Shown: piece after piece, positions 4,731 through 45,976 of the stretch | Layout: the number at the start of each line of letters is the position of its first letter | Position numbering within the stretch: the first letter of the stretch is position 1 | Source of the DNA: Chiloscyllium plagiosum | Lineage: Eukaryota | Assembly: GCF_004010195.1 (NCBI RefSeq) | Contig: NC_057749.1 | Coordinates: 12,739,180 to 12,785,662 of the forward strand | Direction: 5' to 3' | DNA: 46,483 bases | Program-made: the position numbers and the translations under genes | The notes under the pieces: model-generated | Told to the model about the DNA's origin: nothing | The model's input: only the letters and a program-made list of their open reading frames with translations | Database searches by the model: none

Positions 4731-4869
4731 ATTGCTGAATAATGTTTCAAACAAGGTCTGATTTCCATTCCACACAGTCTAAATTAATACAAGAATTACA
4801 ACTCTTTTGGAGAGAATAATCATTTGAATCAAAACTAAATTGAAAATCTAAACTAAAGCAGCCAATACA

Positions 4870-5078
4870 TGATACTCATCTACAAGATGCACTGCAGAAA
4901 TTTGCTAAGGCTCCTTAGATAGCATCGTCCAAACCCATAATCACTACCATTTAGAAGGACAAGGGCAGATGATATATGGGAACATTTGCAAGTTCCCCTC
5001 CAAGCCACTCATCATCCTGACTTGGAAACATATCACTGTTCTGTCAATGTCACCGGATCATAATCCTGGAATTCCCTC
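4870..5078 (+). mobile_element. 3' end of CR1/L2-group LINE (family of 27030-29926), left part
   Basis: Matches 29610-29810 (agaaggacaagggcag...ctgacttggaaa.atatcac). Continues at 12692 after the Gypsy insertion. Confidence 0.8.
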
Positions 5079-5204
5079 TGAAATAACTCCACAGAGGCCA
5101 GTGTCCTGTCATCAAGTCGCACTTTGTTTACAAATGGAGAGTTCTTGATACTGATCCAACTCCCTGAGCCACCTCTCAGAGTGAACAGGATGTCTGAGAC
5201 TCCT

Positions 5205-7986
5205 TTATTTTTCTTTTATTACCCCCACACTACCACCTAACTGTGATAGTGCTTATATTTTCCCACTCACCCATGTTGTGTGTGTGCAGGAGTGAGACAC
5301 AGTGAAAGACGCAAAGTGTACAAATCTTTATTCAATTTCCACCACCAAGAAGAAAGGAAACACCCAAGTGGCCAGTAACAAGCAGTGCACTTCTCATCAA
5401 AGGGCAATGCTGTGTGGTCAAACAGTGATGGGGATGCCAGGGATTAAATCAAAATAGAATTGGAGGGGGAAATAATACACTCCACTCCCTTAGGTGCCCA
5501 CCTCTCCCTGAACTGCTCAAGGGTGGATACCACGTGCTCCCTCTCTGAAGACACCTGGGCTCTAACATAACTGCCGAAGGAGGGCAGGCAATCGGCACTA
5601 ATGACCCCCTCCACGGCCCGTTGCCTGGACCTGTTTATGGCCAGTTTGGCCAGGTCCAGGGGTAGACTCACGCGGAGGTCCTCTGACCTGCCCTCCCCCT
5701 CTGCACCGGGTGCATCCAGAAGCAGAGAAGGTTTTTAAGAAAATCAAAAAGGGAGTGCAAGAACCCACATCCAATATATATATGGCTAACAGACTCCACA
5801 GCACCACAGAACAAGCAGTTGGGCTGGGAGTCTGTGAACCACCGCAATCTGCATCCTGAACCCGATGCCTGCAGAGTCCCGAGCAGATATTCGTGACCGA
5901 CTGTGTCGAACGCCTTCTCCTGGTTGAGAGGCAGGGAGGCGCTTGGCAGACCAGCCCGTCAACAGAAATGGATCAGGTCCCGGACCAGGTGGACGTTATC
6001 ATATATCCTCTGGCCCGCGACCGTGTAGGATGGGTCTGGGTGAATCATGTGGGCCAGCACAGAAGCCAGGCGAGAAGACAACACCCTGGCAAAGATTTTG
6101 CAGTCCGTGCTGAGGAGGGAGTCCAGGCGGAGACTCCAATTCTTTTTCCCTTTTTTCCCATTACCCCCACACTACTGCCTAACTGCGGTAGTGCCTTTTT
6201 AACCCCGCACCATGTTGTGTGTGTGCAGGTGTGGGACACAGTGAAAGACGCAAGGTGCATAAATCTTTATTCAGTTTCCACCACCAGGAAGAAAGGAAAC
6301 ACCCGAGTGGCCAGTGACAAGCAGTGCCCTTCTCATCAAAGGGCAATGCTGCGAGATCAAACAGTGAACAGGGGTTAAATCAAAATAGAATTGGACGGGA
6401 AAATAATGCACTCCATTCCCTGCGGCGCCCATCTCTCCCTGAACTACTCCAGGGTGTTGGTGGACACTGCGTGCTCCTTTTCCAGAGGCACCCGGGCTCT
6501 AACGTAACCGCGGAAGAAGGGCAGGCAGTCGGCCCTATTGACCCCCTCCATGGCCCGCTGCCTGGACCTGTTTATGGCCAGTTTGGCCAGGCCCAGGAGC
6601 AGAGAGACTCCTATTCTTTTTTTTTCTTGGGCAATGCTGTGTGATCACACTCCCCTTTTTTTTTAAACCCCCACACTACCACCTAACTGCGGTAGTGCTT
6701 ATTTTTTCCCCAAGGCTCCTGTTTATTTTTTTCTCTCCTTTCTTTATTTAACCCCCACACTACCGCCTAACCGCAGTAGTGCTTATTTTTTTTCCCAGCA
6801 CCCATGGTGTGTGTGTGCAGGTGTGAGACACAGCGAAAGACACAAAGTGCACGAATCTTTATTGAATTTCCACCACCAGGAAGATAGGAAAACACCCGGG
6901 TGGCCAGTGACAAACACTGCCCTTCACATCAAAGGGCAGTGCTGTGTGATCAAAACAGTGAGGGGGGAGGGTAGGGACTAAATCAAAATAGAGTAGGAGG
7001 GAGAAATGATGCACTCCACTCCCTGCGGCACCCACCTCTCCCTGAACAACTCCAGGGTGTTGGTCGACACCGCGTGCTCCTTCTCCAAGGACACCCGGGC
7101 TCTAACGTAACCGCGGAAGAGGGGCAGGCAGTCGGCCCTAATGACCCCCTCCACGGCCCGCTGCCTGGACCTGTTTATGGCCAGTTTAGCCAGACTCCTA
7201 TTCTTTTTTTTCTTCTTGCTTTTTATTTATTTATTTTTTTCTTTTTTTAAATTTTAACCCCACACTACCACCTAAGTGCGGTAGTGCTTATTTTTTTCCC
7301 CCAGCACCCATGGTGTGTGTGTGCAGGGGTGAGACACACCCTCACAATAGGCAAACACCCGGGTGGCCAGTGACAAACACTGCCCTTCACATGAAAGGGC
7401 AGTGCTGTATGATCAAAACAGTGAAGGGGAGGGGAGGGACTAAATCAGAATAGAGTTGGAGGGAGCAGACTCCTATTCTTTTTTTTCTCATTTTTTTCTT
7501 TTTTACATGGTCCACGGACTCCACAGCGCCACAAAACAAGCAGTTGGGCTGGGAGTCCATGAACCACCGCAACACTCCTGTTTATTTTTTCTTTTTTTTT
7601 CAGCACCCATGGTGTGTGTGTGCAGGTGTGAGACACAGTGAAAGACACAAAGTGCACCAATCTTTATTCAAATTCCACCACCAGGAAGATAGGAAAACAC
7701 CCGGGTGGAAGACTCCTATTCTTTTTTTTTTGCGTGTTAAAGTAGAATTGAACCCCAGTCCCTGGTGCTGTGAGGTAGCATTGCTAACTACTGACCCACT
7801 GTGCCATCCCGACATGGTGGTTTTTTTTTTCTTTTAAAACCCCCACACTACCACCTAAGTGCGGTAGTGCTTATTTTTTTTCCCCAGCACCCATGGTGTG
7901 TATGTGAATCTCCTGTTTATTTATTTATTTATTTATTTTTTCCTTTTTTTCTTCTTTTTTATCCCCAGCACCCATGGTGTGTGTGA
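5205..7986 (-). mobile_element. Tandem array of about 11 5'-truncated Tx1-clade (L1 group) non-LTR pieces inside the Gypsy LTR
   Basis: RT motifs on the minus strand at 5880-6120 (LLSTDCKIFARVLSSRL..IHPD..QEKAFD), zinc-knuckle CLFCGAVESVDHV, C-terminus FRERWAPKGVECIISPSNSILI*, repeated 3' UTR and poly(A) tails, and a recurring junction AGACTCCTATTC. Confidence 0.88.
7745..7810 (-). mobile_element. Isolated tRNA-derived head of HE1-type SINE with poly(A), within the Tx1 array
   Basis: Minus strand gggatggcacagtgggtcagtagttagcaatgctacctcacagcaccagggactggggttcaattc has A and B boxes and matches the SINE head at 19749. Confidence 0.8.
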
Positions 7987-9454
7987 AGACTCCTATTCTT
8001 ATCTGTCAGCTGGGGCTCCCTGATTGGGCCAGATTAACAGCCCCATTCAGGGACCTCCTATTCTATCAGGTCCACCTGACTAGACTCAGAGTGGGAGAGA
8101 TGTAAGTAGTGACTGAAACGAGATCAAAGACGTAGGCCGTTTTTGGTTGTTGCAGCTCCTTCTGTTGCATTTTTGTACCAGGTCAGGTCCCTTCAACTCT
8201 ACCTCTGATATGGGCAGCATTTAGTGCACAGTAACTCCCCTCTTGTGCCCAGAGCTTCTCGGAACACATTCAGTTTCCTCTTCAGGCAGAGATAGCAACA
8301 TCTACCATGTCCATCTTAGGTTCCATGGTAATTTCAAGGCTTGATGAAGAGAGAAAATCCAAGGGTTCCGGAACAGTGTGAGTTTGCAGCGTTCATATGA
8401 TCCACGTTTTGTTCAGGACTGTCTCAGCTAATTGAACTGTATACATCACTGGACCTGACCTCAAGTTGGCCATGCCCCTTACTTACCCATGCAGGGTCAT
8501 TTCCATAGTTTCTACACCAAACCTCAGCCCCTGAAGTAAAGTGTCTCTCTTGCTTAGCGGAGTCATGTGTATGGCATCAGTGTTCCTGATGCTGTTTCAC
8601 CTCCCCCCCACCCCCACCCCCCACCACACGTTAGGGAAGATCAGATTTAACCTTGTGCGAAGTCTTCTTCCCCTTATCAACTCTGCTGGAACTATCTGTG
8701 TCGGTGTATGAGTGGTGGTTCTACAATCAAATAGGCATCAGGACAAAAACAGAAATTATTGGAAAAGCTCAGAACATTTGGCAGCATTTATGGAGAGAAA
8801 TCAGTTAATTTTTAGGTCGAGTGACCCTTCCTCATAAGCCAGTTGTTTTGGTTTTTATATAGGAACTGGGCCAGTATGGTATCTAATGAAATTGTAGGCT
8901 TTTTTATAAGCCTTCAAAGTTTGCACTAATCTTTCTGCCATGTCATTGGATGATGGATGGTATGGTGCTGTTCTGAAATATCATTCAACTTTAGGATATA
9001 CAGAAATTCCCTGCTGGTAAACAGTCACCCATTATCTGTGGCCAACACTTCTGGGAGTGTTGAAAAAGATGTATGCAGTTTTTCTATCATCGTCCCCATG
9101 TTTGACAAATGAACGCCAGCATGACTATGCACGTCCAGCCACCTTGAGTGGGCATCCACAATGACTGAGAACATTGAGTGCATGGAAGGACCAGCATAGT
9201 CAAATGTGTAATGGAGTCTAGGGTTTACCCAGCCATGAATGTGGGGGAGCTGTTGGCAGTAATTTTTGTCCTTGTTGACACTCTGTGCACTGCTCCACCA
9301 GCATAGCCATGTCTACATACAATCCTGACTACCAGACATAACATATTGCCAAGTTATTCATTTTGGAAACATCTGAATGACCCTGATAGAGTTCAGTCCG
9401 TATCTGGCAGTGACCTTTGCTTGGTACAATCATTCTTGCTTCCCAAAATATCAG

Positions 9455-11409: not shown

Positions 11410-12282
11410 CAGCAGCAATTACAATGGCTTGCCAGCCTGGATCCTGAAGACACCATTAATCATTTGGCTGAGGCTTGGCTTTGTTTTGGGGTTTTGCTGT
11501 GGGCTGACCGAGTCCCTTTGTTCAAGATATGTTCTGAGTGAGGCTGTGCAATTTCCTTCACGCAGCTGGTGTTCCCCAAGCTCCATTGGACCTGCGAGGG
11601 TGTCCACTTCCATCGAAATACACTGCAACTCATATGGCCCACTTGCCGCATTTTCCCAATGATAAAACCAGTTGTAGTGCTTGCTTGAAGTCCAGTTGGT
11701 CTTCGGCTAGTGGGCACTTTTGCATGCTTACCTCATTAATCCCACATACCAAACAGTTTCTCAGCATCTCACTAAGGGTTAAACCAAAGTCACATGCCTC
11801 TGCCAGTCATCATAACCTAGTCAAAAGTCTGATATAGATTCCCCTGGTTCTCAAATTGCCGAGTAAAACTGATAGCATTTCAGAATTAGAAGAGGCTTCG
11901 GATCCTAATACTCCTGAACTAAATCCATCAACATTTGAAAAGTTTTAATATCTTGTGCCTCAGAGAAAGTTAGGCTCCTAATAACCAAAAAAGCTGTGAG
12001 GAGAATTACTTGTTGCTTTTCATCTACCCCAATGTTATTTGCCTCGAATAATATAACACATCCTTTCCACATACTGGGCCCAGTCTTCAACAGCTGGATT
12101 GAAAACATCAAGCTTCCCAAACAATGACATGATGCCAGAAGTGCTTACCCCAACTCAAAGGCAACTGTTACAAGCAAATTTCCAGCTCTGAGAGAGAGAA
12201 CAGGATGTCTGTCACTGTTGTTCCTGTCTATCAGCCAGGGCTCCCTAAGTGGACCAGATTAACAGCCCCAGTCAGGGAACTC

Positions 12283-12650
12283 ATAGAGTCATAGAGATGT
12301 ACTGCACAGAAACAGACCCTTCGGTCCAACTTGTCCATTCTGACCAGATATTCCAACCCAATCTATTCCCTCCTGCCAGCACCTGGCCCATATCCCTCCA
12401 AATCCTTCCTATTCAGATAAACATCCAGATGCCTTTTAAATGTTGTAATTGTACCAGCCTCCACCACTTCCTATGGCAGCTCAATCCATACACGTACCAC
12501 ACTCTGAATGAAAGAGTTGCCTCTTTTATATCTTTCCCCTCTCACCTTAAACCTATGCCCTCTAGTTCTGGACTCCCTCACCCCAGGGAAAAGACTTTGT
12601 CTATTTATCCTATCTATGCCCCTCATAATTTTATAAACCTCTATAAGGTC
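12283..12650 (-). mobile_element. CR1/HER1-type LINE 3' end inserted in the Gypsy 5' LTR
   Basis: Tail catagagtcatagag. Reverse complement of 39530-39910. Confidence 0.9.
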
Positions 12651-19720: not shown

Positions 19721-19748
19721 TATGGATGGATAAAAACAAACATATTTG

Positions 19749-20062
19749 GATGGCACAGTAGCTGAGTAGTTAGCACTGCTGCCTCACAGTGTCAGGGACC
19801 CAGGTTCGAGTCCAGCCTCAGGCTACTATCTGTGTGGAGTTTGCACATTCTCCCCATGTCTGCGTGGGTTTTCTTTGGGTGTTCCGGTTTCCTCCCACGT
19901 GATAAATTGCCTCATGTTGTTCAGGAATGTGAAGGTCAGGGGTATTAATCAGGGGTAAATGTAGAATAATAGGGCAGGAGAATGGGTTTTGGTGAGATAC
20001 TCTTCAGAGGGTCAGTGTGGACCTATTGGGCTGAATGGCCTGTTTCCACACTGTAGGGATTC
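19749..20062 (+). mobile_element. HE1-type SINE
   Basis: A box tggcacagtagc, B box ggttcgagtcc, core gtggagtttgcacattctcccc, and CR1-like tail cctgtttccacactgtagggattct. Confidence 0.9.
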
Positions 20063-29926: not shown

Positions 29927-30243
29927 ATTAGATTAGATTACTTACAGTGTGGAAACAGGCCCTTTGGCCCAACAAGTCCACACCGACCCGCCGAAGCACA
30001 ACCCACCCAGACCCCATTCTCCTACATTTACCCCTACATCTAACACTACGGGCAATTTAGCATGGCCAATTCACCTGACCTGCACATCTTTGGACTGTGG
30101 GAGAAAATCAGAGCACCCGGAGGAAACCCACGCAGACACAGGGAGAATGTGCAAACTCCACACAATCGCCTGAGGCGGGAATTGAACCCAGGTCTCTGGC
30201 GCTGTGAGGCAGCAGTGCTAATCACTGTGCCACGGTGCCGCCC
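29927..30243 (-). mobile_element. HE1-type SINE, young
   Basis: (attag)n tail, intact core, CpGs retained. Confidence 0.92.
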
Positions 30244-38119: not shown

Positions 38120-39910
38120 GCAAGAACTTTCGAAAGCTGATTGGGGGCAGATGATCACAGGTAAAGGGATGGCTGGAAAATGGGAAGCCTTCAGAAATGA
38201 GATAACGAGAATCCAGAGAAAGTATATTCCTGTCAGGGTGAAAGGGAAGGCTGGTATGTATAGGGAATGCTGATGACTAAAGAAATTGAGGGTTTGGTTA
38301 AGAAAAAGAAGGGAGCATATGTAAGGTATAGACAGGATAGATCGAGTGAATCCTTAGAAGAATATAAAGGCAGTAGGAGTATACTGAAGAGGGAAATCAG
38401 GAGGGCAAAAAGGGGATGTGAGATAATTTTGGCAAATAAAATTAAGGAGAATCCAAAGGGTTTTTATAAATACGTTAAGGACAAAAGGGTAACTAGGGAG
38501 AAAATAGGGCCCCTTGAAGATCAGCAAAGTGGCCTTTGTGTGGAGCTGCTGAAAATGGGGGAGATACTAAATGAATATTTTGCATCAGTATTTACTGTGG
38601 TAAAGGATATGGAAGACATAGACTGTAGGGAAATAGATGGTGACATCTTGAAAAATGTCTTGCTGAGATATTTGTATAATCGATAGTCACAGGTGAGGTG
38701 CCGGAAGACCAGAGGTTGGCAAACGTGGTGCCACTGTTTAAGAAGGTGGTAAAGACAAGCCAGGGAACTGTAGACCAGTGAGCACGACGAGTTGTTGGAG
38801 GGAATCCTGAGGGACAGGATGTACTTGTATTTGGAAAGGCAAGGACTGATTAGGGATAGTCAACATGGTTTTGTGCATGGGAAATCATGTCTCACAAACT
38901 TAATTGAGTTTTTTGAGGAAATAACAAAGAAGATTGATGAGGACAGAGCAATAGATGTGATCTATATGGACTTCAGTAAGGCATTCGACAAGGTTCCCCA
39001 TGGGAGACTGATTAGCAAGGTTAGATCTCATGGAATACAGGGAGAACAAGCCATTTGGATACAGAACTGGCTCAAAGGTAGAAGACAGAGGGTGGTGGNN
39101 NNNNNNNNNNNNNNNNNNNNNNNNNNNNNNNNNNNNNNNNNNNNNNNNNNNNNNNNNNNNNNNNNNNNNNNNNNNNNNNNNNNNNNNNNNNNNNNNNNNN
39201 NNNNNNNNNNNNNNNNNNNNNNNNNNNNNNNNNNNNNNNNNNNNNNNNNNNNNNNNNNNNNNNNNNNNNNNNNNNNNNNNNNNNNNNNNNNNNNNNNNNN
39301 NNNNNNNNNNNNNNNNNNNNNNNNNNNNNNNNNNNNNNNNNNNNNNNNNNNNNNNNNNNNNNNNNNNNNNNNNNNNNNNNNNNNNNTCCTTCCTATCGGA
39401 AAGATGTTGTGAAACTTGAAAGGGTTCAGAAAAGATTTATGAGGATATTGCCAGGGTTGGAGGATTTGAGCTATAGGGAGAGGCTGAACAGGCTGGGGCT
39501 GTGCTACCTGGAGCATCGGAGGCTGAGGGGTGACCTTATAGAGGTTTACAAAATTATGAGGGGCATGGATAGGGTAAATAGGCAAAGTCGGACTCCCTTG
39601 GGGTCGGGGAGTCCAGAACTAGAGGGCATAGGTTTAGGGTGAGAGGGGAAAGATATAAAAGAGACCTACAGGGCAACCTTTTCACACAGAGTGTGGTACG
39701 TGGAATGAGCTGCCAGGGGAAGTGGTGGAGGCTGGTACAATTGCAACATTTAAGAGGCATCTGGATGGGTGTATGAATAGGAAGGGTTTGGAGAGATATG
39801 GGCCGCGTGCTGGCAGGTGAGACTAGATTGGGTTGGGATATCTGGTCAGCATGGACGAGTTGGACTGAAGGGTCTGTTTCCATGCTATACATCTCTATGA
39901 CTCTATGACT
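38120..39910 (+). mobile_element. CR1/HER1-type LINE ORF2, with assembly gap
   Basis: SQHGFVHGKSCLTNLIEFFEE..DVIYMDFSKAFDKVPH. Tail ctctatgactctatgactc. Confidence 0.95.
39099..39386. other. Assembly gap (N run); second gap at 40976-41006
   Basis: Runs of n. Confidence 1.
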
Positions 39911-40794: not shown

Positions 40795-42070
40795 AACAAA
40801 ATAGGAACAGTTCGCCCCTCAGCCATTTCCGCCATTCAATGTGATGATTAGATTAGATTCAATTCCCTACAGTATGGAAACAGGCCTTTCAGCCCAACAA
40901 GTCCACACCGACCCTTTGAGGAGAAAGTGAGGTCTGCAGATGCTGGAGATCAGAGCTGAAAATGTGTTGCTGGAANNNNNNNNNNNNNNNNNNNNNNNNN
41001 NNNNNNCCTCCCCCAAGTCCCTCCTCCCTACCTTTTATCTTTGCCTGCTGGACACACTTTCCTCGTTCCTGAAGAAGGGCTTATGCCCGAAACGTCGATT
41101 CTCCTGTTCCCTGGATGCTGCATGACCTGCTGCGCTTTTCCAGCAACACATTTTCACACCGACCCTTTGAAGAGTAAGCCACCCAGACCCATTCCCCCCT
41201 GACTAATGCACCTCGCACTACGAGCAATTTAGCATGGCCAATTCACCTGACCTACACATCTTTGGATTGTGGGAGGAAATCCACACAGAGGGTCACCTGA
41301 GGCTGGAATCGGACCTGGGTCCCTGTCGCTGTGAGGCAGCTGTGCTAACCACTGAGCTACTGATCTTTTTCTATGTTGGCTGATCGGTTTCTGTTTTGAA
41401 TTCTACATTATTAATTACCTCCAAAAGCTTTTCATTCCCTTGTCTGATAAGAATCTACTTCACTTTGACTTAAGTATGTTCAACCCCATTTCCATAACCA
41501 CCTGAGGCAATGACTTCCAAAATCATACAATCCTCCAAGAGAAAATCTTCCTCCTCATCTCTGTCCTAAAACAGTGAGTCCTAATTTTACACAGTACCCT
41601 GTAGTCTGAACTAACCCATAGAATAAATATCCTTTCCGTGTCCAAGGCTGTCCAGGATATTATACACTTCAGTCAAGTCAGCCCTTACTCTAAATTTCAG
41701 TGAAAACAAGCCCAATCTGTCCAACCTTTCCTCATTAGACAACCAACTCATTCCAGGTGTCAGTCTAGTAAAACTCCCGTGAACCATCTCCAATGCATTT
41801 ACATCCCTCTTTAAATAAAAAAGATCTAAATTGCACACACAGTGTTCAAGGTGTGGTCTCAGGAATGGTTGTACAACTGAAGCAAAACATTCTTACCACC
41901 CCAATGGTTCAACTCTTTTCCTAGTAAAAGGATGGCATGTCATTAGCCTTCTTAATTATTTGCAGCACCTACTTAACTTTCTGCAACTCACGCACAGAAT
42001 ATCTAGATCTGTCATCACCTCGGAATTCTACAACAGCTCTCCAGTAAAGGAACACCCTGCTTTTTCATGC
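40795..42070 (-). mobile_element. CR1 LINE 3' part, interrupted by a SINE
   Basis: LKRDVNALEMVHGSFTRLTPGM..EERLDRLGLFSL. Confidence 0.85.
40847..41362 (-). mobile_element. HE1-type SINE carrying a palindromic PLE-derived insertion (40920-41154)
   Basis: SINE core. 16-bp TSD cacaccgaccctttga (40904-40919, 41155-41170). Confidence 0.88.
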
Positions 42071-42340: not shown

Positions 42341-43629
42341 AGTTCCATAGGTTTGTAAACTGTGATGGAAACTATCAGGAAAAGGAAGGAATCCAGTACT
42401 GACCTCTCAGGGACTCCACTACATACCTGTTAGAATTATGAAAAAAATCCATTTACCCTATTACTCAGTTTCCTCTCACTCAGCCAATTCTGTATTCAGG
42501 TTGCTCCTGTCCTTTTATTTCATCTACTATAATTTTGCTTGCAAATCTGTCATGAGACACTATTAAATGTCTTTTGGAAGTCCATGTACAAGATAGCATG
42601 TCCTCATTAACCCTCTTGGTTAATCTTCAGAAAACTCCAGCAAGTTAGTTCGACATGTTTTTCGTTTAATGTAACAATGCTGGCCTCCCATAGTTAATCT
42701 CCATTTGTCCACATGACTATTAATTTTGTCTTGAATTATTGTTTTTACTTGAATGCACGAATATTAACTTCAAAGAAGGAAAGAGCACACATTAAGCCAG
42801 ATGAGTAACTAACAAACTGATTAAAGAAAATCCTAATCATTGGTTTTGAATGGGAAAGATCAATTCCTATTCTATAATCATAGACTTTTTCTAAATGTGT
42901 GGAAGTCGTAAGACGTACCTCTGCGGCCGTCATATCCTGAGGTTGGAGTTGAACTCAGACCTTCTGACCAAGAATTAGGGACACTATCATTGTAACTCAA
43001 GACCCTCACCAGCTATCTCTGAAGATTGTCCAACAACAAAATTTGCTGATTATTTTTTCTTATATTTTCTAAATTCACCTCCATTTTTGATTAAGTAACT
43101 TAAGTTCTGCATGATATCTAAAATCTAGTAATCCTAGTTTTATATTTACTGGTGGTCCATTTTATATTGAAAATCAGAAGTGAGGCTTTTATTATCAATA
43201 TAGAAAGTCTCTTCACCACACACACACCAAGGATGTTTCAAAGTGGATGATTTACAAACAGGATGTAATGTCCACTTGCTTTGTTTTTCTGAAGTCTTGT
43301 AATCTAATTTGAGTCAGTAACTCTCTAACCAACAGATGGATTTAAAAGGCAATTTTATTATTCTTGGAACAGAAGAGAGTGGTGCATTTCTTCATTCAGA
43401 AATATGAGGTTGGGGGAGCATTCCCATGGGTGAATGACAAACTAACTTCCCACGTTCAGGATTAAGTAGGCAGCCATTAAGGGAATGATGATAATGATTG
43501 AGGACTACATTAGAACTCCACAGAGGCTGGTCTCCTGTCAATAAGTCACCTTTTATTTACATATGATAGTACTTGATACTGGTCTGGCTTCCTCAGAGCC
43601 AGCTCTCAGAATAAGCAGAACCTCTGACT

Positions 43630-43642
43630 CTCCTGTTTATAT
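43630..43642 (-). promoter_or_regulatory. TATA box of Gypsy LTR (ATATAAACAGGAG); AATAAA about 80 nt downstream
   Basis: Minus-strand TATAAA followed by AATAAA near 43552-43557, the usual LTR order. Confidence 0.6.
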
Positions 43643-44254
43643 CCGTCAGCTAGGGTTCCCTGACTGGACCAGGTTAACAGCCCCAATCAGGGAACTTATA
43701 TGCTATGAGGTCCACCAGGCTGACCTTGTTTCAATCACCAGATCCCTCCCCCAACAAGTCTAGGGACGTGGGCCTATTCTTTTTCTTGTAGCATCTCCTG
43801 GGTATTTTTGCACTGGATCTGGTCCCTCCAAATAAGCCTTGGATGTGGGCAATGTGTACTGGACTGTAGCCTGCCTGTTGTACCTGGAGCATCTCGGAAG
43901 AAATTCATCCTCTTCTTCAGGTGGTAAAGGCATCAAGGCTGCAATATCCACTGTGTTTATCTCAGACTCAAGCTTCTTCGACACTCGGAGGGGGCGAACT
44001 CACGGGTTCTGACAGCCTTTCCAGCTGTTCCGAGGGGCCGGGTACATTTTGCTCCTCCCCAATTTGAGAGTTGTGGTGCACGTACTTATTCAGGACCGCC
44101 TCACCTACCAGAACTTTGTACATCATGGGACCTGACCACATGTCGACCATGCAGGGCCATTTCCATGGTTTCAGCATCAATCTCTAACTCACTTAGAGGG
44201 GTCTTGTGTCAGCATTGGTGTTCCCATTGCCGTCTCAGCTGTCCCCCCAGCCAT

Positions 44255-44585
44255 TAGGGGTGATGATGCCCTAGTGGAATTATTGCTGGACTGTTAATCC
44301 AGAGATCCAATTAAGTTTCAGATCCCACCATGGCAAATGGTGGAATTTGAATTCAATTTAAAAATAATCTGGAATTGAGAGTCTAATGTTGCATCCATTG
44401 TCAATTGTCAGAAAAACCCATTTGGGTCACTAACATCCTTTAGGGAAGGAAACTGCCATCCTTACCTGCTCTGGCCTACACGTGACTCCAGACCCTCAGC
44501 AATGTGGTTGACTCTTAACTACCCTCTGGGCAATTAGGGATAAGCAATAAATGCTGGCCTAGCCAGCGACATCCTGAACCTGTGA
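44255..44585 (+). mobile_element. tRNA-derived SINE whose tail matches the CR1/L2-group LINE
   Basis: Tail gggataagcaataaatgctggcctagccagc matches the LINE 3' end at 29880-29910. Confidence 0.8.
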
Positions 44586-45976
44586 ATATGTGGGAGCTCC
44601 TGGCAATAGCTTTTGCCCTGTTGGCACTCTGGGCATTGCCCTATCAACACAGCTATATCTGCATTCAATCCTGGCCACCAGGCATAATGTCTCACCAACA
44701 TCTTTATTTTGGACACCCCAGGATGACCCTAGTGGAGTTCAGACAGTATTTGGCAGCAACCTTTGCTCAGGACAATCACTCTTGCTGCCTAGATTAAAAT
44801 GCCATCCTCTGTGGTGATCTGGTCTTACCAGGTCCAGGAAAGATTTTAATTTCTGGTTATGATGCACTTTTATTTCCCCAACACCACCAGCTGTTTTAGT
44901 TTTGCCAGGACCGGAACTTTTTGTCCCCAGTTTGATATTGTCAGCAGTCACCTGGAAGATTAAAACCAGAATGGATTGTTCCAGTGGCAGCACTACCAGT
45001 GATGTATCTGTCAGTGGGAGGCGGCTCAAAGCACTTGCTATTTGGCTTCCCAGGTAGTGTTCCAACTTGTACACCCTTAGGATGAGAGCCCACCGCTGAA
45101 CTAGACCTGAAGCTAAGGGCAACACATCCTTGTCTACTGTGAGTAGCCCTAGCAGGGGTTTTGGTCTGTTATTATTACAGTATTGATGGAATTTTGTCAC
45201 ACCAAAGATGAATGCCAAACCTTTCTTCTCTATCTGGGTGTATTTGTGCTCTGCATCAGACAAAGACCAGAAAGCATACACGGCTGGTTGTTCCTCTCCA
45301 TTGGGCCATTGCTCCAATACCATGCAGAGAGAGACACACCGCATGTCAGCCCAGATCTCGCTTGGGATCATAGTGAGTCACCACTTTATTGATTGACTTG
45401 TTGTTGTCACATGTACAGAAACACTGTGAAAAGTATTGTTTTGCATGCTATTTGGCAGATTGTACCATACAAAGTGCTTCAAGGTAGCAGAACAAAATGT
45501 AGGGATACAGTGTTACAGCCACTGAGAAGGTGCAGAGCGAGAGATTAGAATTAACATTTGAGAGGTACATTCAAAAGTCTGATAACAGCGAGGAACAAGC
45601 TATTCTTAAATTGATGATGGCTGCTTTTTCACTTCCTTAAAGGCTACATCTTGGCTATGAGACCATTTCCAAGGCTGACCCATTTTCAATTGCAGTTGTA
45701 AGGGTGTCAAGATGGAGCTCAGGTTACATATTAACTTTCTATTATAATTCACCAATCCACGAAAAGTACCTAGGCTCCGGTACAGATGTGGGAGCCAGGG
45801 CACCTTTGATTGCCTCACTTTATCTTCCTAGGGGTGTAACCCAGTCTTGTTGATTCTGTAGTCCAAGTAGGTTACTTGGGGTGTGTGGAACACAATTTGT
45901 TCCCTTCTAAGGCATATGCCCATCATGGAGAAATGTCAAGTTCTCCAAGTGCTCTTTATTGGTCTTCCCTGTAATT

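What the first reader, a model, noticed from the sequence alone, without database searches (positions are those of the whole stretch)
6716..7920. A second, non-local target variant inside the array suggests pieces were copied from other arrays
Seen: three internal junctions read CTCCTGTTTAT (6716, 7575, 7910) rather than the local GACTCCTATTC. That variant is the sequence of the intact LTR at 43630-43640 (12-nt match for 7909-7920). Each sits inside a block bounded by local-type TSDs (6617-7191, 7479-7709, 7722-7986). Inference: these blocks are read-through transcripts of arrays in other LTR copies, retrotransposed as composites by 3' transduction, so arrays would pass content between loci.
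Basis: partly seen in the sequence, partly recalled or inferred. Interest (0 to 1): 0.75.

Follow-up and report, generated by a model that had tools for sequence, protein, structure and literature searches.

The report
Borrowed junctions inside a LINE stack
A stack of jumping-gene copies piled at one spot of an old LTR contains three joints carrying the address tag of other LTR copies, so pieces of such stacks are copied from one stack to another, most likely through RNA.

Summary
CTCCTGTTTAT ("V") lies at 6716, 7575, 7910 and 43630. GACTCCTATTC ("L") lies at five junctions.

The array (5209-7987) is a stack of minus-strand, 5'-truncated copies of a very abundant Tx1-clade LINE. They sit at one site of a ~720-bp LTR, inside what reads as its TATA box.

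V is the commonest form of this target in the genome; L is this LTR copy's own variant. The interleaved order of L and V rules out local drift.

Junction 3 (7910) has the same breakpoint in 25 other matches at about 22 other places. Two of those are off-target arrays with quite different target duplications, so V travels with the inserted piece. One contig (L081) shares sequence on both sides of V with the window.

Other loci show 3'-transduced LTR pieces and composites of several units shared between loci. Junctions 1 and 2 have no counterpart in this assembly.

RNA-mediated import is well supported. Whether each whole block arrived as one read-through RNA is shown only weakly (block 3) or not at all (blocks 1, 2). 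No RNA or read-level check was possible.

This is a new variant of known things: Tx1 target-specific stacking plus LINE transduction. The scan's earlier notes hold nothing on it.

The parts
5085..5208 (-). LTR copy A, downstream (R/U5-side) part. It ends in the leftmost target copy, GAGACTCCTTTAT, at 5196-5208.
   Evidence: 76% identical to 43514-43634; sequence read.
5209..6129 (-). Unit U0: the oldest and longest LINE copy. It reaches the RT motifs and is internally deleted (RT motif joined straight to the C-terminal zinc knuckle).
   Evidence: Translation. Weak RVT_1 and zf-RVT hits below cut-off. Median identity to its 20 best relatives 88.7%.
6130..6142 (.). Junction J1, GAGACTCCAATTC (local type with one change).
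6143..6603 (-). Unit U1, a 5'-truncated LINE copy.
   Evidence: Median identity to its 20 best relatives 87.8%.
6604..6616 (.). Junction J2, local type (GAGACTCCTATTC).
6617..6715 (-). x1: poly-T, a 30-nt internal LINE fragment, poly-T, then about 51 nt of LINE tail with the stem-loop. There is no target copy between the two pieces.
   Evidence: The chimeric join is unique in the genome.
6716..6726 (.). Junction J3, non-local type V (CTCCTGTTTAT, preceded by g).
   Evidence: Unique in context.
6727..7192 (-). y1: 466-nt 5'-truncated LINE copy with a full tail.
   Evidence: Median identity to its 20 best relatives 95.7%.
7193..7203 (.). Junction J4, local type L.
7204..7467 (-). Unit U4: a LINE copy of a variant subfamily with a replaced internal segment.
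   Evidence: The same variant segment is seen in L080.
7468..7478 (.). Junction J5, local type L.
7479..7574 (-). x2: poly-T followed by a fragment of the LINE ORF2 C-terminal (zinc-knuckle) region that lacks the LINE 3' end.
   Evidence: 91.5% identical to 5789-5847. Its poly-A break is unique.
7575..7585 (.). Junction J6, non-local type V (preceded by aca).
   Evidence: Unique in context.
7586..7710 (-). y2: 125-nt LINE copy whose tail lacks the stem-loop module.
   Evidence: 95-98% identical to many genomic copies. Median identity to its 20 best relatives 98.1%.
7711..7721 (.). Junction J7, local type L.
7722..7909 (-). x3: poly-T, a fragment of a dispersed short repeat (about 7731-7815), poly-T, then the LINE tail unit (about 7826-7909) ending at the breakpoint GTATGTGAAT.
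   Evidence: The tail unit with its V junction is shared by 25 other matches.
7910..7920 (.). Junction J8, non-local type V (preceded by gaat).
7921..7987 (-). y3: an AT-rich tail followed by a LINE tail piece lacking the stem-loop module (67 nt in all). The AT-rich tail is also found behind V in L081.
7988..8596 (-). Junction J9 (local type L, 7988-7998, continuing TTATCTGTCAGC) and the upstream (U3-side) part of LTR copy A, up to a purine tract and a TG start near 8596.
   Evidence: A weak integrase-core hit lies at 9028-9312(-), E 0.0049, below cut-off.
43514..44233 (-). Uninterrupted LTR copy B. Its target GACTCTCCTGTTTAT|ATCC lies at 43626-43644.
   Evidence: Integrase_H2C2 at 44537-44728(-) and RT_RNaseH at 44742-45377(-) lie just upstream in sense.

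Best explanation
The array is a stack of retrotransposition products of a Tx1-clade, APE-type, target-specific LINE. In the + strand the enzyme nicks after ...TTTAT in the LTR. On the sense (minus) strand this reads GAT|ATAAACAGGAG, which I read as the LTR's TATA box. Each event leaves an 11-15-nt copy of the target on both sides, so a stack keeps the spelling of its own LTR copy as a tag.

The three V junctions carry the tag of other LTR copies. They entered on RNA made from other arrays. Transcription ran through a unit's poly-A and the target copy behind it into the next unit. Such RNA was then reverse-transcribed at the local L target.

Shown: V is foreign to this locus. The junction-3 piece exists with the same breakpoint at many other loci, including off-target sites. 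Read-through past the target copy and shared composites of several units occur in this genome.

Inferred: RNA is the vehicle for blocks 1 and 2. Each whole block (x-V-y) is one event rather than a V-headed piece joined to a neighbour. The LTR promoter drives array transcription.
For: (1) Tx1 identity. An RT piece (P0003, from L099) is 65% identical over 99% of its length to the Xenopus 'Transposon TX1 149 kDa protein'. RVT_1 is found, and Exo_endo_phos plus RVT_1 in L094.

(2) V is the commonest target form. It is exact in 4 of 16 right-flank junctions of an unbiased sample and within 1 mismatch in 12 of 16. Copy B reads V. The exact L 18-mer occurs only in the window, 4 of 4 exact hits. The LTR's left flank carries the same local prefix GAGACTCC.

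(3) Order of junctions. They read C, L', L, V, L, L, V, L, V, L. Insertion duplicates a junction in place, so one mutation gives contiguous runs of a type, not interleaving.

(4) Junction 3. There are 28 matches with up to 3 mismatches, control 0. Of these, 26 including the window have the same breakpoint. Two of the arrays have no LTR similarity (L064, L075), and their own target duplications are GCCTCAGTAGTTTTAT and CCCCTCTTGTTTTAT. V is therefore carried by the inserted piece.

(5) L071 (C29). At least 6 junctions there carry the GAAT prefix, and the unit abuts the LTR flank. This makes it a candidate birthplace of the tag.

(6) Both sides shared. L076 and L077 share 61 nt beyond V, with the far unit truncated at different points. 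The window and L081 share V plus about 36-44 nt of a distinctive AT-rich tail, and then the same LINE sequence after a 19-nt gap. L069, L074 and L075 share 155-169 nt holding two junctions.

(7) Transduced LTR pieces. Pieces of 14-26 nt behind a foreign junction, followed by poly-A, occur in L009, L017 and L023. The script gave 5 hits, of which I judge 4 real, in 3 places among 92 locus records.
Against: Junctions 1 and 2, their x pieces and the tails on the y side have no second copy in the assembly, even with up to 3 mismatches. No source is known for two of the three junctions.

Among the 25 other same-breakpoint matches of junction 3, the sequence beyond V differs in nearly all. Informative likeness is limited to L076/L077, to L082/L083 (probably one locus assembled twice) and to L081/window. 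A single master composite is therefore excluded.

Joins without a target copy inside x1 and x3 show that the enzyme also strings RNAs together. The shared y-side sequence with L081 is mostly low-complexity.

There is no RNA evidence, no read-level check of the assembly and no orthologue. The leftmost junction (GAGACTCCTTTAT) ends like V, so the ancestral local target may have been nearer to V than L is.
Confidence: 0.65

Rival explanations
1. Only the V-headed piece is imported. The RNA would be target copy plus x plus poly-A, made at another array. The unit on the other side of V (y) is then either a resident local unit or a second RNA. The two are joined without a new target duplication, by template switching onto a poly-A tail, by poly-T microhomology, or by pairing of the carried target copy with the resident one.
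For: In nearly all of the 25 other same-breakpoint matches the sequence beyond V differs, while V plus x is constant. Joins lacking a target copy exist inside x1 (near 6660) and x3 (near 7815). In V-type arrays no double V is seen next to the unit. Homology-aided 5' joining is cited for R2 in Kojima 2015 (PMC4494074, section 20).
Against: L076/L077 and window/L081 share sequence on the far side of V, and L069/L074/L075 share two junctions. In L064 the block x-V-y sits between two copies of an unrelated local duplication, with none between V and y. An RNA 5' end exactly at the edge of a target copy has no obvious cause.
Confidence: 0.2
2. The transfer happened at the DNA level. Ectopic gene conversion or unequal recombination between arrays at different loci pasted V-bearing segments into this array.
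For: There are thousands of similar arrays. Tandem DNA duplications inside arrays exist: C4 at 109.17 Mb repeats the LTR flank plus a unit, and L071 repeats a 330-bp block.
Against: Each V block starts with poly-T directly after a local junction and ends at a fresh 5' truncation next to a local junction. That is the signature of retrotransposition. Truncation points are unique, so homology for conversion is missing on one side. V-bearing units also occur in arrays at non-LTR sites.
Confidence: 0.07
3. The V junctions are relics of the ancestral local target, which later mutated to L.
For: The leftmost junction (5196-5208) ends TTTAT like V. LTR fragment C (12182-12285) also has G at the position where V has G and L has A.
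Against: The interleaved order would need at least 3 independent identical triple changes. Junction 3 is shared with 25 matches elsewhere. The bases before V (g, aca, gaat) differ from the local GAGA prefix.
Confidence: 0.03
4. The mixed junctions are an assembly artefact: reads from different arrays were joined.
For: The family is very repetitive. The assembly has 101,977 contigs and redundant contigs, for example L082/L083.
Against: The same architecture (a foreign junction inside a block bounded by local junctions) recurs at many independent loci. The array is only about 2.8 kb. No read-level check could be made.
Confidence: 0.03

Closest known systems
Tx1L inserted in Tx1D (Xenopus laevis), the founding Tx1-clade case
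   Same: The protein is close: 65% identity in the RT region to the TX1 149 kDa protein. The domains are APE-type endonuclease plus RT. Both insert at one defined site of another transposable element (Tx1 into Tx1D as stated in PMC4494074, Introduction).
   Different: The host here is an LTR, not a piggyBac-type DNA transposon. Here there are long stacks of truncated copies, and foreign target tags inside them. No tree was made, so the placement inside the clade is untested.
Crocodilian Tx1-Mar / SINEU, and Tx1-8_Crp and Tx1-4_AMi which prefer LTR retrotransposons (Kojima 2015, PMC4494074; abstract, passages and sections 17 and 20 read)
   Same: Tx1 families that target transposons, LTR retrotransposons among them. 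Tandem insertions sandwiching a target duplication. A subfamily (SINEU-2B_Crp) whose 5' extension comes from the target Mariner, read there as a master copy transcribed from flanking target sequence.
   Different: That paper treats tandem copies as sequential insertions and does not report foreign target copies inside tandems. Here the target copy itself travels, together with neighbouring units. The short travelling unit here has no snRNA head.
L1-type 3' transduction, also reported for R1Bm and R7Ag in assays (PMC7265360, Discussion passages; the original L1 papers are recalled, not read)
   Same: Transcription reads through the element's own poly-A into downstream DNA. A second poly-A follows, and the whole is flanked by one target duplication. 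This is seen here at L009, L017 and L023 with LTR pieces.
   Different: In a stack the downstream DNA is another copy of the target plus another unit. The 'flank' is therefore itself mobile-element sequence and can seed further rounds.
R2/R1 co-transcription with the target, and template-jump chimeras (cited in PMC4494074, sections 17 and 20; otherwise recalled)
   Same: Target sequence carried on the element RNA. RNAs joined without a target copy, as at the joins near 6660 and 7815.
   Different: No ribozyme and no rDNA are involved (0 Rfam matches). The carried target copy here serves as a readable tag of origin.

Membership tests
Tx1-clade target-specific LINE | APE-type endonuclease followed by reverse transcriptase in one ORF | tested here: met
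   L094 has Exo_endo_phos (E 7e-8) and RVT_1 (E 1.6e-15) in one frame. RVT_1 has E 8.7e-31 in P0003. These come from genomic relatives; the window's own copies are truncated.
Tx1-clade target-specific LINE | Closest protein relatives are Tx1 elements | tested here: met
   P0035, 'Transposon TX1 uncharacterized 149 kDa protein' of Xenopus laevis: 65% identity, 99% coverage, E 3.6e-119. No phylogeny was made.
Tx1-clade target-specific LINE | C-terminal zinc knuckle after the RT | tested here: inconclusive
   A CLFCGAVESVSH motif is read in U0. zf-RVT gives E 0.044, below cut-off.
Tx1-clade target-specific LINE | Insertion at one defined sequence, in one orientation, with a target duplication | tested here: met
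   The same site of the LTR is followed by poly-T and LINE sequence in 18 of the 26 matches by my reading. Right-flank junctions were found at 16 of 29 unbiased loci. Duplications are 11-15 nt. Off-target sites also end in TTTAT.
LTR of an LTR retrotransposon (the host repeat) | Lies directly downstream of pol (integrase) remnants in the same orientation, after a purine tract | tested here: met
   Copy B: Integrase_H2C2 at 44537-44728(-), E 1.5e-11, and RT_RNaseH at 44742-45377(-), E 1.3e-9. Copy A: weak rve hit at 9028-9312(-), E 0.0049, below cut-off. G-rich purine tracts precede a TG start near 8596 and 44233 (read).
LTR of an LTR retrotransposon (the host repeat) | Two copies flank one internal region; the ends read TG...CA | tested here: inconclusive
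   No pair was found in the window; copy C (12182-12285) is a fragment. The start reads TG, but the shared end reads ...GGAGTT, not CA. Only 40 of 4260 candidate copies were scored.
3' transduction by read-through | Unit, poly-A, downstream DNA of the source, second poly-A, all inside one target duplication | tested here: met
   The structure holds for all three blocks and for the LTR-piece cases at L009, L017 and L023.
3' transduction by read-through | A source locus holds the same unit and flank side by side | tested here: inconclusive
   Block 3: L081 shares both sides of V, and L071 is a candidate origin of the GAAT tag. Blocks 1 and 2: no match.
Template-switch chimera | Two retro-copied RNAs joined head to poly-A tail with no target copy between them | tested here: met
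   The joins near 6660 and near 7815 have no L or V between the pieces. This does not apply to the V junctions themselves, which do contain a target copy.

The most novel reading that the evidence does not exclude
The LINE aims at the TATA box of the LTR. The upstream target copy then keeps the promoter in front of the newest unit, and poly-A plus ATAAAC forms an AATAAA signal behind each unit. Stacks would thus act as promoter-fed, leaky, multi-unit source loci that trade segments genome-wide. One junction born in a single stack (candidate: C29 at 44.478 Mb) has become a tiny non-autonomous element: a LINE tail of roughly 70-85 nt with a target copy as its head. It now sits at about 22 other places, off-target sites among them. 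It may integrate by pairing its carried target copy with the resident one.
Probability: 0.3. Interest if true: 0.65.

Novelty: new variant of a known kind. Interest (0 to 1): 0.5.

Why it matters
Target duplications of a site-specific LINE act as natural tags of the locus where a unit was born. Here they show that stacks of dead, truncated copies are still transcribed across their joints. They also show that segments, and not only single elements, are re-copied to other stacks and to off-target sites.

This gives a tractable way to trace source-to-sink traffic of retrotransposition in a 3.56-Gb genome. It also shows how short non-autonomous elements can be born from junctions.

The placement of the target inside a promoter motif of the LTR suggests a test: does a Tx1-type LINE live off the host element's promoter, as R2 lives off rDNA transcription?

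Tried and rejected
Source loci for blocks 1 and 2. I searched exact 25-mers and 31-32-mers with up to 3 mismatches. I also searched the poly-A break of x2 (only ordinary LINE copies besides the window), the x1 chimera and the V-plus-tail strings on the y side. Nothing was found beyond the window, apart from one unrelated 3-mismatch hit (C6:73113414).

The join between the short repeat and the tail in x3 gave two hits that look like the repeat's own continuation, not the chimera.

Export of the local tag. The exact L 18-mer is found only in the window. A one-mismatch variant, ACACTCCTATTC plus T6, lies at 22 places elsewhere. The backwards-read control gave 21 hits against 44 for this T-rich pattern, so I draw no conclusion beyond 'L-like cores exist elsewhere'.

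Sister-LTR test of the ancestral target. Copy C (12182-12285) is a diverged fragment and not a sister of copy A.

Sequencing runs. No RNA holder is listed.

L099's long 'ORF' was a run of withheld N.

Rfam gave no match in 4800-8800. Pfam gave nothing for 24 of the 26 ORFs tested next to LTR copy A or for the LTR-internal frames.

My automatic census of junction types found both local-type and 2-or-more-mismatch junctions in 9 of 12 arrays. It is noisy, because it calls some T-runs as junctions, so I use it only as a rough guide. Left-side gapped alignments among junction-3 copies mostly reflect ordinary LINE homology, not shared composites.

Earlier notes of the scan held nothing near or like this.

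Literature. I found no paper describing foreign target copies inside Tx1 stacks. The search listings were read as listings only. PMC4494074 and PMC7265360 were read in part.
Full report
WHAT IS THERE. The window is part of a 3.56-Gb, 101,977-contig eukaryotic assembly (C40:12,739,180-12,785,662). Between 5209 and 7987 the + strand carries the reverse complement of a series of LINE fragments. Each begins with poly-T (the poly-A tail read backwards) and ends at a different 5' truncation point. A short repeated word separates each fragment from the next.

CTCCTGTTTAT (V) lies at 6716, 7575, 7910 and 43630: 4 matches against 0.06 expected. GACTCCTATTC (L) lies at 6606, 7193, 7468, 7711 and 7988: 5 matches against 0 expected. 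The stack begins further left than the finding says. A 921-nt copy (5209-6129) reaches the reverse-transcriptase motifs. It is bounded by GAGACTCCTTTAT (5196-5208) and GAGACTCCAATTC (6130-6142).

THE ELEMENT. A less decayed genomic relative gives RVT_1 at E 8.7e-31. It is 65% identical over 99% of a 302-aa RT piece to the Xenopus 'Transposon TX1 149 kDa protein'. Another relative has Exo_endo_phos plus RVT_1 in one frame. The element is therefore a Tx1-clade, APE-type LINE.

The family is very abundant. There were 4271 first-look candidates for a 59-aa RT piece, 1649 for a 231-nt tail piece, and 506 matches with up to 3 mismatches for one internal 31-mer. The tail holds a 10-bp stem-loop (-20.6 kcal/mol, z -3.1), which some units lack.

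THE HOST. The flanks 5085-5204 and 7990-8076 match 43514-43634 and 43630-43716. Weaker likeness continues to about 8520 and 44180. The repeat starts sharply at 43514 in many loci and has more than 4260 candidate copies.

Read on the minus strand, both copies follow a G-rich purine tract and start with TG. Both lie just downstream of pol remnants in the same orientation. For copy B these are Integrase_H2C2 (E 1.5e-11) and RT_RNaseH (E 1.3e-9). For copy A there is a weak integrase-core hit, below cut-off. I accept 'LTR' as likely. I did not see a pair of copies flanking one element, and the shared end does not read CA.

On the sense strand the target reads ...CCAATCAGGGAGCC...GCTGACAGAT|ATAAACAGGAG... 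in most copies. So the cut falls inside a TATAAA about 27 nt after a CCAAT word. An AATAAA lies 81 nt further on. The motif names come from general knowledge. No function was tested.

V IS THE COMMON TARGET, L THE LOCAL ONE. GACTCTCCTGTTTAT followed by TTTT occurs 26 times, control 0. By my reading, 18 of the 26 are followed by LINE sequence or a transduced LTR piece, and 8 are unclear or not insertions. Several lie in stacks (C4, C5, C30).

In a sample chosen by LINE sequence rather than by junction (29 loci), 16 show a junction against the LTR's right flank. Its core is V exactly in 4 of them, within one mismatch in 12, and 2-3 mismatches away in 4. L is 3 mismatches from V.

L's exact 18-mer occurs only in the window (4 of 4 exact hits). 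A one-mismatch relative, ACACTCCTATTC plus T6, lies at 22 places elsewhere (noisy control). The LTR's own left flank here reads GAGACTCC, the prefix shared by the L junctions.

WHY V CANNOT BE LOCAL. Every insertion duplicates the junction it hits. Descendants of one junction type therefore sit next to each other. The order here is C, L', L, V, L, L, V, L, V, L. Local drift would need at least three independent, identical triple changes. The bases before the three V copies also differ (g, aca, gaat), as expected for tags from three different LTR copies. Stacks with aca/gaca-V and gaat-V tags exist elsewhere.

Junctions 1 and 2 are unique. This holds for exact 25-mers and for 31-32-mers with up to 3 mismatches. 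It also holds for the strings on the other side of V and for the odd 3' ends of x1 and x2.

Junction 3 is different. Its 31-mer is found 13 times exactly and 28 times with up to 3 mismatches, control 0. Two of the 28 have other breakpoints by my reading. That leaves 26 including the window. Two of these (L082, L083) share both flanks fully and are probably one locus assembled twice. So there are about 24 other copies at about 22 places.

What they share is the LINE tail broken at GTATGTGAAT plus V (about 84 nt with its leading A's in the window copy; its 3' extent varies between copies).

Three loci decide the matter, because their own target duplication is not V. These are the window (L), L064 (GCCTCAGTAGTTTTAT) and L075 (CCCCTCTTGTTTTAT). 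The last two have no LTR similarity within 3 kb. In all three, V still sits at the end of the tail unit, so V travels with it.

L071 (C29:44.478 Mb) has at least six junctions with the GAAT prefix, and the unit lies directly against the LTR's right flank. It is a candidate birthplace. I could not fetch its left flank.

ONE RNA OR SEVERAL? Beyond V, the sequence differs in nearly all copies, so there is no single master composite. Three sets do share more.

L076 and L077 share 61 nt beyond V, including an identical interrupted poly-T. The far unit is truncated at different points, and the outer junctions differ.

L069, L074 and L075 share 155-169 nt that hold a second junction (CCTCTTGTTTAT) besides V. 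Their outer flanks differ.

The window and L081 share V plus a distinctive tail, (TTTA)n...TTTCC...CTTCTTT. After a 19-nt gap in L081, the same LINE sequence follows. It runs on for more than 200 nt in L081 but is cut after 67 nt in the window.

These cases are what a read-through composite with variable 5' truncation predicts. The last case rests largely on low-complexity sequence.

Independently, three places show an unambiguous 3' transduction (L009, L017, L023). There a foreign junction is followed by 14-26 nt of LTR sequence from downstream of the target and then poly-A (5 hits, 4 judged real, among 92 locus records).

Against a pure read-through picture, x1 and x3 each contain a join of two retro-copied pieces with no target copy between them (near 6660 and 7815). 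This points to template switching or insertion without a duplication. The blocks could therefore be a V-headed RNA joined to another RNA or to a resident unit.

Mixed tags inside stacks are common in the unbiased sample, for example L032, L036, L055 and L058. My automatic count (9 of 12) is noisy.

AGE. The two leftmost units are about 88% identical to their best relatives. Those to the right are at 93-98%. U4 is of a variant subfamily and not comparable. This fits growth at the LTR-promoter side, but it is not a test.

MOST LIKELY MECHANISM. The endonuclease nicks after TTTAT, and target-primed reverse transcription of a poly-A RNA follows. A second cut 11-15 nt away duplicates the target.

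Because the cut lies in the TATA box, the upstream copy keeps TATAAA in front of the unit next to the LTR's upstream part. Each downstream joint reads (A)nATAAAC. Both points are inferred.

Transcripts that pass a joint carry the source's target copy and the next unit. They are polyadenylated further on and re-inserted elsewhere. This is shown at other loci for LTR pieces and for several composites. It is inferred for blocks 1 and 2 here.

COMPARISON WITH WHAT IS KNOWN. Several parts of this are already in print.
- Tx1 elements are target-specific, and Tx1 itself sits in the Tx1D transposon.
- Some crocodilian Tx1 families prefer LTR retrotransposons.
- Tandem insertions sandwiching a duplication occur.
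- A SINEU subfamily carries a 5' extension taken from its target Mariner.

All of these come from Kojima 2015, PMC4494074 (abstract, passages, sections 17 and 20). 3' transduction is known for L1 and was seen with R1Bm and R7Ag (PMC7265360, Discussion passages).

I found no description of foreign target copies inside Tx1 stacks, or of their use as tags of origin (listings only). I rate this a new variant of a known kind.

LIMITS. There is one assembly only. Some stretches are withheld as N. No reads could be laid, no RNA holder is listed, and no relatives are held. The scan's earlier notes hold nothing on this.

Noticed in passing
window 43626-43700 (minus strand); right flanks of V in L005, L007, L009, L012, L021, L071, L086: On the LTR's sense strand the LINE target lies inside a TATAAA word about 27 nt after a CCAAT word that is kept in most copies. 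Poly-A plus the target copy (ATAAAC) spells AATAAA at every downstream joint. This suggests promoter capture and leaky polyadenylation. It is untested.
   Followed up: partly
window 6739-6815 (minus strand), also 5220-5260, 6656-6710, 7828-7886: The LINE tail holds a 10-bp stem-loop (CACUAC..GC / GC..GUAGUG) before its final A-run (-20.6 kcal/mol, z -3.1). Some units (y2, y3) end before it. There are thus two kinds of 3' end.
   Followed up: partly
window 7731-7815; also 30179-30239 (+) and 19732-19807 (-): A fragment of a dispersed short repeat with its own poly-A is joined to a LINE tail inside the stack, with no target copy between them. The LINE machinery seems to copy other poly-A RNAs too.
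   Followed up: partly
L071 (C29:44,477,312-44,480,342): This stack holds a non-LINE retro-copied segment of about 330 bp, with its flanking junctions, repeated twice in tandem. That is DNA-level duplication inside a stack. L008-L011 (C4 at 109.17 Mb) likewise repeat the LTR's left flank plus a unit.
   Followed up: no
window 5196-5208: The leftmost target copy reads GAGACTCCTTTAT, neither L nor V. It has the local prefix but a V-like end, so the ancestral local target is uncertain.
   Followed up: partly
window 12182-12285: A third, fragmentary LTR copy has an empty, diverged target (…TTCCTGTCTATCAGCC). It is cut at 12286 by another repeat.
   Followed up: partly
window 7204-7467 and L080: A LINE subfamily in which about 60 nt of the 3' region are replaced by a short different segment (…ctcacaataggcaaacacccgg…).
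   Followed up: no
window 39099-39386 and 40976-41006; L063, L065, L066, L080, L092, L099: Runs of N (gaps or withheld stretches). The long 'open frames' that the genome search reported for some LINE copies are partly such runs.
   Followed up: yes
genome-wide, e.g. C1:93,445,348-93,446,557: A junction type ACACTCCTATTC plus poly-T recurs at 22 places, up to four per stack. It is either an LTR subfamily with an L-like target or another travelling tag.
   Followed up: no
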